A stretch of 64,000 nucleotides of DNA, from NCBI GenBank assembly GCA_951406725.2, contig OX597824.1, positions 9,300,001 to 9,364,000 of the forward strand, given 5' to 3'. The translations under genes were made by a program, and so were the position numbers. Source of the DNA: Octopus vulgaris (taxonomy: Eukaryota). A model generated the notes under the pieces. The model was not told where the DNA came from, made no database searches, and saw only the letters and a program-made list of their open reading frames with translations. Shown piece by piece: positions 6,669-61,110 of this stretch (position 1 is its first letter; every line of letters begins with the position of its first letter).

Positions 6669-6715
<47 letters not shown>

Positions 6716-6720
<5 letters not shown>

Positions 6721-6930
6721 TTTACGGAAAAAAACAAAAGACGAAGGCAGGTGGTGTATAAAACAAAGAGATGTATTAGTATAACGCTCAGGAATATAAA
6801 AAATATTTTACGTTTCGAGCCTACGCTCTTCTACAGAAAGTGACAGAAAAAAACAAGGAGAGTAACAAGGAGAGAAAAAAATGTGTGTAGTGTCTAACGA
6901 TCTATCATGGCGACTGCTAGACAGAAGGAT

Positions 6931-6935
<5 letters not shown>
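6716..6935 (-). mobile_element. Short TA-associated element P1 with hammerhead-like motif
   Basis: Homologous to 11822-12013 and 60965-61100; 3' end abuts a microsatellite. Confidence 0.7.
6806..6840 (-). ncRNA. Minimal type-I hammerhead-like motif, variant core CUGUAGA
   Basis: Minus strand cttt CTGTAGA A gagc gtag gctc GAAA cg TA aaa: stem I, 4-bp stem II, palindromic stem III acgt, GUA triplet. Confidence 0.55.
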
Positions 6936-11614: not shown

Positions 11615-11812
11615 ACCCTTTTCTGCTTTAGGCACAAGGCCAGAAACTTTGGGGGAGGGGCACCAGTCGATTACATCGATCCCAGTGCGTCACTGGTACC
11701 TAATTTATCGACCCCGAAAGGATGAAAGGCAAAGACGACTTCGGCGGAATTTGAAAACAGAACGTAAAGACAGACGAAATATCGCTAAACGTTTCGCCCG
11801 GCAGGCTAACGT
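11615..11812 (-). mobile_element. SINE family B with alternative tail
   Basis: Body atcgaccccgaaaggatgaaaggcaaag; tail ggcacaaggccagaaactttgggggag. Confidence 0.85.
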
Positions 11813-11821
11813 TTATATATA

Positions 11822-12010
11822 TATTAGATCGTTAGCCACTACACACATCTTTTCTCTCCTTGTTTCTCTCCTTGTTTTCTGTGTCCCTTTCTATAGAAGA
11901 GCGTAGACTCGAAACGTAAAATACATTTTCTATTCCTGAGCGTTATACTAATACATCTGTTTGTTTTGTACATCACCTGTCTTCGTCTTTTGCTTTTTTC
12001 CGTAAACTCT

Positions 12011-12013
<3 letters not shown>
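11822..12013 (+). mobile_element. Element P1 with hammerhead-like motif (11887-11921)
   Basis: ctttctatagaagagcgtagactcgaaacgtaaaa; 3' end runs directly into (TA)n at 12014. Confidence 0.7.
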
Positions 12014-23571: not shown

Positions 23572-23950
23572 AATAAAGAAATAAGAAACGTTAGCACACC
23601 GGGCGAAATGCTCAGCGGTATTTCGCTTGTGTTTGTGTTCAAATTTCGCCGAAGTCGACTTTGTCTTTATTCCTTTCGGGTTCGATTAAATACGTACCAG
23701 TTACGCACTTGGGTCGATATTATCGACTTAATCCGTTTGTCTGTTCTTGTTTGTCCTCTCTGTGTTTAGCCCCTTGTGGGTAGGAAAGAAATAGGTATTT
23801 CGCTTGTCTTTACGTTCTGAGTTCAAATTCCACCGAGTTCGACTTTATCTTTCATCCTTTCGGTATCGATAAATTCCAGTTGCGTACTGGAATCAATCGA
23901 CTGGCCCCCTCTCCCAAAATTTCGGGCCATGTGCTTAGAGCAGAAAAGAT
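23572..23950 (+). mobile_element. SINE family B multimer ending in alternative tail
   Basis: Junctions aaagaaata|agaaacgttagc and aagaaata|ggtatttcg. Confidence 0.85.
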
Positions 23951-24866: not shown

Positions 24867-24931
<65 letters not shown>

Positions 24932-24934
<3 letters not shown>

Positions 24935-25197
24935 CGGCGAGATGGCAGAATCGTTAGCGCGCCGGGCAAAATGCTTATCGGTATTTCGTCTGCCGCTACG
25001 TTCTGAGTTCAAATTCCGCCGAGGTCGACTTTGCCTTTCATCCTTTCGGGGTCGATTAAATAAGTACCAGTTACGTACTGGGGTCGATATAATCGACTTG
25101 ATCTGTTTGTCTGTCCTTGTTTGTCCCCTCTGTGTTTAGCCCCTTATGGGTAGTAATGAAATAGGTATTTCGTCAGTCTTTACCTTCTGAGTTCAAA
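24932..25197 (+). mobile_element. SINE family B plus partial second unit
   Basis: Near-consensus copy, junction gaaata|ggtatttcg. Confidence 0.9.
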
Positions 25198-25352
25198 TGT
25201 AAAGCAAAAGTCAAACATAAAATAATAATAATGATGATGATGTGACAGACTCTTCCGTCGTTGGTGACGTATGCGTCTTCAAATTTTGTTTATAGTGATC
25301 AAAATATGTGTGCTGTACGTTAACTCACTCCCTAGCCACTAAACCATGGACA

Positions 25353-31004: not shown

Positions 31005-31096
<92 letters not shown>

Positions 31097-31100
<4 letters not shown>

Positions 31101-31303
31101 ATCCAAACAAGAAAACAAAAAAACACAACCACGCAAGGACGTGGAACAAATAAAGTATTATTGGACGCTCAGGAAAGAAGGGAAGAAGGAGGGTTTAACG
31201 TTTCGAGCGGAGCTCTTCGTCGGAAACATATTAGAAGGAAAGATCCCGAGAAGGGAAGACAGAGGAAAAAAATCGCCGGTGGTACTCACGAGGTCACATA
31301 CTG
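31097..31303 (-). mobile_element. P1-related TA-embedded element with hammerhead-like motif (31193-31227)
   Basis: Minus strand gttt CCGACGA A gagc tcc gctc GAAA cg TT aaac; shares ttcctgagcgt with P1; 3' end abuts (TA)n. Confidence 0.65.
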
Positions 31304-31355
<52 letters not shown>

Positions 31356-40400: not shown

Positions 40401-41061
40401 CTTTGGTCTTATTCTTCAACACTGCTTCCTTTGGCTATAGTAAATATGAACATTAGCAAGGCTGCGTATAATGGTGACAAGAAATCACAAGGAATTAAAA
40501 CTAATTTGTGTTTCCGGTTCTCGGAACCTCAACGTCACGCTTAGCGCCATACTTATCGGCAAGAATTTACGACAGTTTAAGATTTTGAGGGCGATGAATT
40601 GGCATAATTTTCAGGTCATCAGGCATGCGCAATACTGTATTTAGGTATGGAGTTTTACGTTCTAAATACACATTCCATGTTGGTCAACTTTGTCGTACAT
40701 CGTTTCAAGTGCTAGAAAATGGAATACTTGCCGTATATTGGTATCGATTCCTTCATCCGAAATGTGTGTATGGAGTCCTTGTTCTCATGTTACGAATGAT
40801 TATTTGTAATTTCTGAATGTAGACTGGGACGTAAGTTGCCAGACTCTTTATAGAATCAGACGAATTACCTTGTGGTACAGTTCATAGTTTCTTTTCTCTC
40901 TAAGTTCAAATCCCGCCGAAGTAAACAATAACACTCATGGCACTCAATGTCGATAAAATCAAGTAAGATTCTAATAGAGGGAGTGATGCTAGCGACTTAC
41001 CGTTCGCTTCAAAATTGCTAGCGTTGTGCTTAAGTTAGGAATAATGAAATGCGGTTGAATG

Positions 41062-41478
41062 CGGCGAGCTGGTAGAAACGTTAGCACGCCGGGCGAAATG
41101 CTGAGCAGTATTTCGTCTGCCGCTACGTTCTGAGTTCAAATTCCGCCGAGGTCGACTTTGCCTTTCATCCTTTCGGGGTCGATTAAATAAGTACCAGTTA
41201 CGCACTGGGGTCGATATAATTGACTTCATCCAATGTCTGTCCTTGTTTGTCCACTCTTTGTTTAGCCCCTTGTGGGTAGTAAAGAAATAGGTATTTCGTC
41301 TGTCTCTACGTTCTGAGTTCAAATTCCGCCGAGGTCGACTTTGCCTTTCATCCTTTCGGGGTCAATAAATTAAGTACCACTTATGCACTGGGGTCGATAT
41401 AATCGACTTAATCCCTCTGTCTGTCCGTGTTTGTCCCCTCTATGTTTAGCCCCTCGTGGGCAATAAAGAAATAAGAAA
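41062..41478 (+). mobile_element. SINE family B head-to-tail dimer
   Basis: Two near-identical units joined at aaagaaata|ggtatttcgtctg. Confidence 0.92.
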
Positions 41479-43913: not shown

Positions 43914-43954
43914 CCAGAGACTAGTTTCAGACTCATTGCTCATCATCAGTCTGG
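43914..43954 (-). ncRNA. Type-I hammerhead-like motif with canonical core and GUC triplet
   Basis: Minus strand ccaga CTGATGA tgagcaatgagtct GAAA ctag TC tctgg; perfect 5-bp stem I, palindromic stem III actagt, weak stem II. Confidence 0.6.
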
Positions 43955-44201
43955 GGTAGCATGGCTTGCTGGCTGACGAGGCCTGTCCGCCTGTGAAAAC
44001 ATATATATTTCAAGTGAAATACATTCACTGATTTTTGAAAGTAGAAATAATATATTTCTAAATCTCTCAGAGAGATTTATACAGTAGCTGCAGGATAAAG
44101 TACTGCTAATGTATAATGTGACAGTCCCATTACGTTGACAAATTACTATCACTTTATCGTGCTGCTACTACATAAATCTCTCCGAGAGATTTATAAATAT
44201 G

Positions 44202-49430: not shown

Positions 49431-50276
49431 TGAAGTGGAATACCATGCGGTAGAATTGAACCCGAAACCACGTATTTGCGAAGCAAACTTCTGAACTGTA
49501 CAATAATACCAGCTCTGCTGAATGCGTACAAATTGCGACAGAAATGTTGATCATTGTTTAATTATTTTAAAATGTCGTTTTTTGTTTGTCTGTTATTTGC
49601 TATATTTAGAGACTCGTATCATTTTATCCTCCCCCCCCCCTTGTTATTTAGCTATTTAAACTTTTTTTATCTCAATCTTTATCTCTATATTTCAACGAAT
49701 AAACTTTGTGTTACTAAAGTTAGAAGTATTGTCTAATGTTAAGTTGGAGACTGCTCTCACCCTGCTGTTATTTACTGCCAGATAATAAATTGCTTCTGAA
49801 GTAAAGAAATTTGCCCTTTAAACTTAGCAAATATTTCGATTTTACTGATGTCTTTTTATCAAAGAAACTGCAAAGAAAGATCATTTAAAATCACTGACCT
49901 GCATATGTTCTGAAATTTTTCAGCGTATATATATTTGTAGTAAGCTAAGAAATAAAAGTTATTATCAAGGATCTATTTTTATTTCAGAGTTTCTCTAACC
50001 AACCTAACGTTGTACAGTAAAGCTTACTTACAGCTATAAATTCATAAAGATTTTTCATTATAGCTTTGCAATATTGAATACCAATGTTATGAAGTATCAT
50101 ATATATTTTCGTATTATATCATAACATTGTTATATCTACAGGGAACCAATGTTTCCATAATAAAATAAACCAATATTATTATAAAAAGTCTCATAATTAT
50201 ACTTGAGCCATATTTAAAACTTAGGGGTATACGATATTCTTATTTTTAGTGAACAAATAAATATTCAATATTTATA

Positions 50277-50697
50277 TACCTATTTCTTTACTACCCACAA
50301 GGGGCTAAACACAGAGGGGACAAACAAGGACAGACAAACGGATAAAGTCGGTTACATCGACTCCAGTGCGTAACTGGTACTTAATTTATCGACCCCGAAA
50401 GGATGAAAGGCAAAGTCGACCTCGGTGGAATTTGAACTCACAACGTAACGGCAGATGAAATACCTATTTCTTTACTACCCACAAGGGGCTAAACACAGAG
50501 AGGACAAACAAGGACAGACAAACTGATTAAGTCAAATATATCGACTCCAGTGCGTAACTGGTACTTATTTAATCGACCCCGAAAGGATGAAAGGCAAAGT
50601 CGACCTCGGCGGATTTGAACTCAGATCTTAACGGCAGACGAAATACGGCTACGCATTTTACCCGGCGTGCTAACGTTTCTGCCAGCTCACCGCCTTA
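50277..50697 (-). mobile_element. SINE family B dimer flanked by about 170-bp direct repeats
   Basis: Two units; flanks 50108-50277 and 50700-50884 are homologous. Confidence 0.9.
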
Positions 50698-51064
50698 TAT
50701 TTTCTTGTTATATCATAACATTATTATATTTGTTATATTTGTTATACAGGGAACCAATGTTTCTATAATAAAATAAACCAATATTATTATATAAAGTTTC
50801 ATAATTAAACTTGAGCCATATTTAAAACTTAGGGGTATACAATATTCTTATTTTTAGGCAACAAATAAATATTCAATATTTATATTTGTCATAGATTCTG
50901 TCTGGTTTGATGTAACACTCGAATACGCAAAATCCACATAGTTTTGTGGGCGCAGCTTTCCAACAAGTGTGTGCGTGTGTGTGTTTGTGCATGTACGTGT
51001 ACGTGTGTGTATGTGTGTGTGTGTGTGTGTATGTGTGTGTGTGTTTATGTATGTAGGTGTAGTA

Positions 51065-60822: not shown

Positions 60823-60964
60823 GAAACATATACACACTTGCGTATAATTTATCTAGTTTCAAACGTTACCTTTCTTATAAGTGTGTGTGTGCGTGCGTAC
60901 ACACAACATCACTCACTCACACACACACACACACACACACGCATATATGTATATGTGTAAATAT

Positions 60965-61100
60965 GTTTCTCTCCTTTTTTCTCTCCTTTTTTCTCTCCGT
61001 TTTATTCTCTCCTTGTTTGTTTTTGTATCCCTTCCTGTAGAAGAGCGTAGGCTCGAAACGTAAAAGACTCTTTCTATTCCTGAGCGTTATACTAATACAT
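60965..61100 (+). mobile_element. Element P1 with hammerhead-like motif (61031-61066)
   Basis: cttc CTGTAGA A gagc gtag gctc GAAA cg TA aaag, then ttcctgagcgttatactaatac. Confidence 0.7.
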
Positions 61101-61110
61101 ATTCGTCGTA

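What the first reader, a model, noticed from the sequence alone, without database searches (positions are those of the whole stretch)
31097..31303. Sister family with a second variant hammerhead core (CCGACGA) and altered stems
Seen: minus strand gttt-CCGACGA-A-gagc-tcc-gctc-GAAA-cg-TT-aaac. Relative to P1, stem I changes from cttt/aaag to gttt/aaac (a compensatory pair), loop II differs, and the triplet is GUU, still of NUH type. The downstream ttcctgagcgt motif and the (TA)n-abutting 3' end are retained. Inference: structure is conserved while sequence diverges, which supports a functional RNA fold in both families.
Basis: partly seen in the sequence, partly recalled or inferred. Interest (0 to 1): 0.72.

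Follow-up and report, generated by a model that had tools for sequence, protein, structure and literature searches.

The report
Penelope-type minimal hammerhead with C4 core
This 207-base piece of an abundant animal repeat, likely the tail of a Penelope-like jumping gene, carries a small hammerhead-ribozyme motif whose normally fixed U4 is a C in most copies, a change also carried by an intact Penelope-like element in coral-type DNA, so the ribozyme is likely weakened but tolerated, and its cutting is untested.

Summary
The motif is there as described: a minimal type I hammerhead (31193-31227, minus strand) with core CCGACGA. C4 is not private. In three sequencing runs holding the family, C4 carries about 76-80% of contig depth and canonical U4 20-24%, 5-14 times the decay at neighbouring CpGs, so both are subfamily states. 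A scan that left positions 3-7 free found the same core in an unrelated coral-type family. There C4 marks one subfamily and sits about 105 nt behind an intact 775-aa RT-GIY-YIG (Neptune-type) frame. The window copy is therefore most likely a 5'-truncated Penelope-like tail inserted in (TA)n, though no ORF links it directly. Stem I does covary across families. Folding gives no support for the active form, and cleavage is untested. The class is known (Cervera 2014) and U4C is known from a viroid. C4 fixed in amplifying Penelope elements was not found in my searches, though Lünse 2017 could not be read. New variant of a known kind; interest 0.42.

The parts
31097..31303 (-). Whole repeat copy, likely a 5'-truncated 3' terminal repeat (pLTR) of a Penelope-like element
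   Evidence: Bounded by (TA)n on both sides; 11,927, 3,958 and 3,718 contigs laid in three runs; no ORF remnant found in the window
31224..31227 (-). Stem I, 5' strand (GUUU)
   Evidence: no variant row at 2% or more
31217..31223 (-). Core C3-C4-G5-A6-C7-G8-A9; C4 at 31222 replaces U4
   Evidence: U4 in 23.9, 19.7 and 22.7% of depth, the rest essentially C4
31205..31216 (-). Unpaired A after A9, then stem II GAGC/GCUC with loop UCC and a G10.1-C11.1 pair
   Evidence: matches the min-HHR hallmarks in PMC4209133
31197..31204 (-). GAAA, palindromic C15.2-G16.2 (helix III only possible in a dimer), U16.1 and U17; predicted cut between 31197 and 31196
   Evidence: H17 varies U>C and U>A, no U>G row
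31193..31196 (-). Stem I, 3' strand (AAAC)
   Evidence: C>U in 8-13% of depth keeps a G-U pair
31165..31175 (-). TTCCTGAGCGT motif shared with P1, role unknown
31044..31096 (.). (TA)n tract abutting the 3' end, the likely target site
31304..31319 (.). (TA)8 tract abutting the 5' end
6715..6933 (-). Sister family P1 copy (approximate ends), core CUGUAGA (A6U), stem I cttt/aaat
11812..12013 (+). Sister family P1 copy (approximate ends), core CUAUAGA, stem I cttt/aaat
60962..61105 (+). Sister family P1 copy (approximate ends, 3'-truncated), core CUGUAGA, stem I cttc/aaag

Best explanation
The element is one copy of a high-copy repeat carrying a minimal type I hammerhead motif with C at position 4, likely the 5'-truncated terminal repeat of a Neptune-type Penelope-like retrotransposon that was likely reverse-transcribed into a (TA)n tract, and the C4 ribozyme is predicted to cut slowly, only as a dimer and with help from the element's protein. 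Shown: the motif, its family-wide C4 majority with a U4 minority, and the same core behind an intact RT-GIY-YIG frame in another animal's DNA. Inferred: (1) the window copy is a Penelope tail; (2) two copies pair through the ACGU palindrome to build helix III; (3) C4 is tolerated because cleavage is not rate-limiting for transposition, and possibly because a protonated C can take over U4's contact with the A6-N7 phosphate; (4) C4 arose separately in this lineage and in the coral-type lineage. This lone, roughly 5% diverged copy is probably an inert relic; selection acted on the source elements.
For: All descriptor features of the Penelope min-HHR are met except U4. C4 is about 76-80% of depth in three runs; U4 is 5.5, 10.6 and 13.6 times the mean of nine other CpG changes in the ribozyme. 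Non-CpG variants in the ribozyme are a G-U wobble, H17 U>C and U>A, and one pair-breaking A1.2>U at 1-5%. The metagenome scan left positions 3-7 free: 31 of 119 loci read CCGACGA and 37 CTGACGA. In 77 non-redundant coral-type copies, subfamily A is 34 C4 and 0 U4 of 36, and B plus C are 1 C4 and 34 U4 of 37. With position 4 masked, the tree needs 2 changes against about 24.5 for shuffled labels. L189 holds a 775-aa open frame with RT, a CxxxxCxxC linker and GIY-YIG, then the C4 motif about 105 nt after the stop. With an anchor outside the ribozyme, 32 of 41 alignable copies in G001 have C4. Stem I pair 1.2/2.2 covaries across 12 families (G-C 5, U-A 3, C-G 2, A-U 1, unpaired 1; covariation score reached by 0 of 500 shuffles). 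Literature passages: a natural viroid U4C is weaker in vitro yet infectious (PMC3088659); the PAc hammerhead cuts only with protein (PMC11167929); C+ can replace U in a U-turn (PMC4105743, PMC6061696); Neptune has a microsatellite bias (PMC8557442).
Against: No ORF links the window family to a Penelope element: tblastn of the window found nothing, no genome is held, and similarity to the fetched loci is confined to the ribozyme for the C4 copy. The ribozyme fold is not the predicted minimum (z -1.24 and 0.07); stem I probability is 0.04-0.11, and the double-hammerhead dimer scores -5.7 against -22.5 kcal/mol for the best co-fold. In G001, 21 of 40 short copies begin just upstream of the core, so they came from uncut RNA; only 4 begin within one base of the cut site. 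P1 carries a different core change (U6 in 3 of 3 copies), which also fits loss of catalysis. Both Pfam hits on L189 are just under the curated cut-offs (28.2 of 29.6; 21.7 of 22.6). Contig depth is not copy number, and the raw-read run X23 gave only 3 reads. Stem II was fixed by my search pattern, so its invariance in the fetched loci is no evidence. No Rfam hammerhead model hit the region.
Confidence: 0.55

Rival explanations
1. Still a Penelope tail, but the C4 motif (like the U6 motif of P1) no longer cuts. The fold is kept as a protein-binding or promoter-proximal structure, or simply has not yet decayed.
For: Two sister families in one genome carry different core changes. Ribozyme-dead mutants still inserted in vitro (PMC11167929), and Naiads thrive without canonical hammerheads (PMC8557442). 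Most short C4 copies in G001 start upstream of the core. Folding is unfavourable.
Against: H17 changes stay within the NUH rule, and no other core base varies above CpG decay. U4C is active enough in a viroid. 4 of 17 junctions inside or behind the ribozyme fall at the cut site plus or minus one base (nominal P 0.04, post hoc and weak).
Confidence: 0.25
2. A short non-autonomous element (SINE-like or retrozyme-like) of about 210 bp that borrows Penelope enzymes, rather than a truncated tail of an autonomous element.
For: Very many contigs are laid and there is no ORF in the window. Animal retrozymes are described as non-autonomous Penelope derivatives (bioRxiv 2026.07.22.740005).
Against: There is no tandem arrangement here and helix III is minimal rather than canonical. 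P1 copies begin at different points, as 5'-truncated copies would.
Confidence: 0.12
3. C4 copies act mainly as substrates, cut in mixed dimers by the U4 minority of the same family.
For: In a double hammerhead the core and the cut site come from different molecules (PMC4209133, plus inference). A U4 state of 20-24% coexists in the family.
Against: In G001 the family is C4 throughout: T4 is 3 of 41, no higher than other CpG sites, so no U4 partner of that family is evident there.
Confidence: 0.06
4. C4 is a private mutation or the motif is a chance look-alike.
For: No Rfam hit and unremarkable folding energy.
Against: Majority state in three runs; 3 motifs in the window against 1 in 60 shuffles; the same core behind an intact Penelope frame.
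Confidence: 0.02

Closest known systems
Minimal type I hammerheads (min-HHR) of metazoan Penelope-like element terminal repeats (Cervera and De la Pena 2014, PMC4209133)
   Same: Short stem I, unpaired base after A9, G10.1-C11.1, palindromic 15.2-16.2 with no helix III, NUH site, mostly solo copies. The coral-type family found here matches their Acropora digitifera Neptune row.
   Different: C at position 4. Their descriptor fixes cuganga, and every row of Fig. S3 that I read has U4; their reported core variant is U3-A8. No cephalopod is listed.
Neptune clade of Penelope-like elements (PMC8557442)
   Same: Microsatellite insertion bias. L189 has RT, the CX2-5CxxC linker, a C-terminal GIY-YIG and a 3' hammerhead.
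   Different: Clade membership is supported only for the coral-type family; the window family has no ORF in reach.
Natural U4C viroid hammerhead variant (cited in Perreault et al. 2011, PMC3088659)
   Same: Same substitution; much lower activity in vitro, yet infectious.
   Different: A rare variant of a viroid ribozyme, not the majority state of amplifying retroelement subfamilies.
PAc (Anolis Poseidon) protein-assisted hammerhead (PMC11167929)
   Same: Penelope terminal-repeat hammerhead; uncut RNA is the main insertion template, as the junction pattern in G001 suggests.
   Different: No C4 is mentioned in the passages read; Poseidon clade; activity tested.
Lünse, Weinberg and Breaker 2017, small Penelope-associated hammerhead variants that cleave as dimers
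   Same: Same class by title.
   Different: Text not held; whether it lists C4 is unknown.

Membership tests
Penelope min-HHR (Cervera 2014) | Core CUGANGA | tested here: not met
   CCGACGA; about a fifth of family depth has U4
Penelope min-HHR (Cervera 2014) | Stem I of 3-7 bp and stem II of 3-7 bp with a loop of 3-10 nt | tested here: met
   4 bp, 4 bp, 3 nt
Penelope min-HHR (Cervera 2014) | Extra base after A9, G10.1-C11.1, palindromic 15.2-16.2, GAAANNUH | tested here: met
   A, G-C, CG, GAAACGUU
Penelope min-HHR (Cervera 2014) | Large family, mostly solo copies | tested here: met
   11,927, 3,958 and 3,718 contigs laid; one copy in the window
Penelope min-HHR (Cervera 2014) | Self-cleavage as a dimer | not testable with these tools
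   Folding gives no support; no assay
Penelope-like element terminal repeat (window family) | Lies downstream of an RT plus GIY-YIG frame | tested here: inconclusive
   No ORF remnant in the window, but the copy extends only 80 nt upstream of the core and no genome is held
Neptune clade (coral-type C4 family, L189) | RT, CX2-5CxxC linker, C-terminal GIY-YIG, hammerhead near the 3' end | tested here: met
   Pfam scores just under cut-off; no tree against named clades was built
Neptune clade (window family) | Insertion in (TA)n microsatellites | tested here: met
   Both ends abut (TA)n; the window is microsatellite-rich (74 tracts), so this is weak
Non-LTR retrozyme | Tandem units each with a type I hammerhead | tested here: not met
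   Solo copy, no tandem array at this place
Rfam hammerhead families | Score at or above gathering threshold | tested here: not met
   0 hits; none of 8 weak hits is a hammerhead

The most novel reading that the evidence does not exclude
C4 is a recurrently selected tuning change in Penelope hammerheads: a protonated cytidine replaces U4, making cleavage slow and dependent on pH or on the element's own protein, so that uncut RNA survives as the insertion template. It would define an overlooked, very abundant class of C4 ribozymes that cuganga-based searches cannot see, gained separately in a cephalopod-like and a coral-type lineage.
Probability: 0.17. Interest if true: 0.7.

Novelty: new variant of a known kind. 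Interest (0 to 1): 0.42.

Why it matters
Why Penelope elements keep hammerheads is an open question (PMC8557442, PMC11167929). Near-identical U4 and C4 subfamilies, one with an intact frame, give a natural matched pair for testing whether cleavage rate matters for transposition. They also show that a standard descriptor misses whole high-copy families. If C4 and U6 are simply dead, it is an ordinary case of ribozyme decay in a retroelement.

Tried and rejected
No whole genome is held. Rfam: nothing at gathering, no hammerhead among 8 weak hits. Self-comparison found no second C4 copy in the window. Pattern scans with no hit: viral contigs and the two-family pattern in genome contigs. The look-up of sequencing runs: no RNA holder listed; X6 is only guessed to be RNA. 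Raw-read run X23: 3 of 12,895,792 records laid, uninformative and unexplained. Folding gave no support for the monomer or dimer. Pfam missed the GIY-YIG parts of L007 and L043. Enrichment of 5' junctions at the cut site: 4 of 17, nominal P 0.04, post hoc, with 4 also at another position, so not accepted as evidence of cleavage. A C4-C7 dependence was considered, but U4 sisters also have C7 (32 of 36), and a search for a U4-U7 contact gave nothing useful. Pairing of the downstream GAGC with stem II cannot be tested because the pattern fixed stem II. CpG decay as the source of U4 in the window family was rejected (G5>A on the same CpG is 0.6-2.2%). Earlier-findings look-ups by sequence, place and first word set were empty.

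Full report
Setting. The window is AT-rich, microsatellite-laden animal DNA. I take it for an octopus from the recalled look of its repeats; no call tested this. No genome is held.

Observation. The 207-bp copy has (TA)n on both sides. P1 is present three times (6.8, 11.9 and 61.0 kb), with cores CTGTAGA, CTATAGA and CTGTAGA. None of the three has both cttt and aaag, so the compensatory pair is seen in 0 of 3 copies. A relaxed descriptor finds 3 motifs in the window and 1 in 60 shuffled windows; I wrote it after seeing the motif. In register, the C4 motif shares 25 and 26 of 32 non-loop positions with two P1 copies. The longer flanks share 38-51%, apart from the 11-base motif.

Is C4 private? 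No. 22 of 24 listed runs, from 10 studies, hold the stretch or part of it; I laid 4 of them. Three contig sets gave 11,927, 3,958 and 3,718 laid contigs. The raw-read run gave 3 reads, which I cannot explain. At position 4, U carries 23.9, 19.7 and 22.7% of depth. Nine other CpG changes in the ribozyme average 4.3, 1.9 and 1.7%, and G5>A on the same CpG is 2.2, 0.9 and 0.6%. So C4 is the majority state and U4 a real minority subfamily. The other non-CpG changes in the ribozyme are C1.4>U (8-13%, keeps G-U), U17>C (2.6-9%), U17>A (1.5-4.4%) and a pair-breaking A1.2>U (1-5%). No two-sided stem change reaches 2%. Depth is not copy number, and laying on a C4 reference may favour C4 copies. The window copy departs from the majority at about 10 places by my count from tables 3 and 7, none in the ribozyme; that is not significant by itself.

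Class. Apart from U4, the motif meets the min-HHR descriptor and hallmarks of Penelope terminal repeats (PMC4209133; I read main-text parts 1-2 of 4 and the supplement text). That descriptor fixes cuganga, so it could not find C4.

Relatives elsewhere. 88 belong to one family that matches the Acropora Neptune row of Cervera's Fig. S3; 11 duplicates were dropped, leaving 77. Subfamily A has 34 C4 and 0 U4 of 36; B and C have 1 C4 and 34 U4 of 37; 4 copies were unclassified. With position 4 masked the tree needs 2 changes, though support is rough. Protein relatives of the frame upstream of L007 include RT plus GIY-YIG proteins and two named from corals. A genome scan gave 39 loci, mostly from one assembly (G001), with 25 CCGACGA and 3 CTGACGA of 44 matches, several being chance bacterial hits. 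L189 has a 775-aa stop-free frame with RT, a CxxxxCxxC linker and GIY-YIG, then the C4 motif about 105 nt after the stop. With an anchor downstream of the ribozyme (58 places, 55 distinct copies read, 14 set aside as junctions or indels), 41 copies give C 32, T 3, G 3, A 3 at position 4. So source elements with C4 amplified. The window's C4 copy resembles the metagenome loci only within the ribozyme and both lineages have U4 sisters, so separate origins are likely but not proven.

Covariation. On 12 sequences I picked to represent families, stem I pair 1.2/2.2 takes four pair types; the covariation score was reached by 0 of 500 shuffles and beats the slid controls. Stem II was fixed by my pattern. 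Neighbouring copies outside the pattern show GGGC as well as GAGC against GCUC, a one-sided change.

Against activity. Folding z-scores are -1.24 and 0.07, and the dimer form is far from the best co-fold. In G001, 21 of 40 short copies start in the 10 bases before the core, about 25-30 nt behind a TATA-like box, which suggests a transcript start and uncut templates; 4 of 17 later junctions lie at the cut site plus or minus one. This fits PMC11167929 (passages), where the hammerhead needed protein to cut and was dispensable for insertion.

Mechanism. Most likely a Penelope tail inserted in (TA)n, whose C4 ribozyme cuts slowly as a protein-assisted dimer (0.55). The main rival is a fold that no longer cuts (0.25). 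Perreault 2011 (section 8 and passages) reports that U4 contacts the A6-N7 phosphate and that a viroid U4C is weak but viable. Protonated C replaces U in another U-turn (PMC4105743, PMC6061696; passages). Applying this to C4 is my inference, and the hammerhead core rearranges in the full-length form (PMC6155905, passages).

Novelty. The class and the substitution are each known, and one survey uses CYGANGA as its descriptor (PMC13481778, passages). Nine searches found no report of C4 in Penelope hammerheads or of octopus hammerheads. Lünse 2017 is not held and may list it, and the Octopus vulgaris repeat paper's supplement was listed but not read (PMC13282606, passages). Other papers seen: PMC8557442, PMC6765202, PMC11014351 and PMC10886601 (passages); bioRxiv 2026.07.22.740005 (part 1 of 5). 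Earlier AI notes report U4C in phage hammerheads and a C4-bearing core in a Euglena repeat; I did not test them.

Verdict. Real motif, known class, new variant; activity untested. Interest 0.42.

Noticed in passing
window 43914-43954 (-): Another type I hammerhead motif with canonical CUGAUGA, 5-bp stem I, palindromic CUAG helix III and a mispaired stem II; probably a decayed Penelope tail of another family. A CTGACGA...GAAA string lies beside it on the plus strand at 43973-43998.
   Followed up: partly
window 31568, 43344, 45250, 47650, 61261: An abundant repeat family ends in a hairpin followed by GAAAC-N1-3-TA-AAA, like the 3' half of a hammerhead, with no CUGANGA upstream.
   Followed up: no
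window 31165-31175 and L048, L053, L076, L086, L095, L109, L110: A GAGC lies 19-40 nt behind the cut site in both window families and in 7 of 13 other loci checked. It could pair with the GCUC strand of stem II as an off-switch, or be a shared repeat motif; my pattern fixed GCUC, so this is untested.
   Followed up: partly
L204 1570-1610 (-) and other G001 copies: 5' ends of short copies cluster just upstream of the core, about 25-30 nt behind a TATA-like box, suggesting the ribozyme sits at the very start of the transcript.
   Followed up: partly
G001 (L120-L258): An assembly titled as a bacterium holds 147 matches to a Penelope protein and over 50 copies of the repeat, so much of it looks like animal host DNA.
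   Followed up: partly
L198, L254-L258: Other Penelope-like families in G001 carry U4 cores, and L198 has two copies with the known U3-A8 core.
   Followed up: no
window 23584-23897, 24929-25198, 41055-41473, 50276-50703 and others: Many copies of a SINE-like family with a 184-bp internal tandem unit; the P1 copy at 11.9 kb adjoins one.
   Followed up: no
run X23 on window 31097-31303: A run with the same species label as a strong holder gave only 3 reads in 1,934 million letters; unexplained.
   Followed up: no
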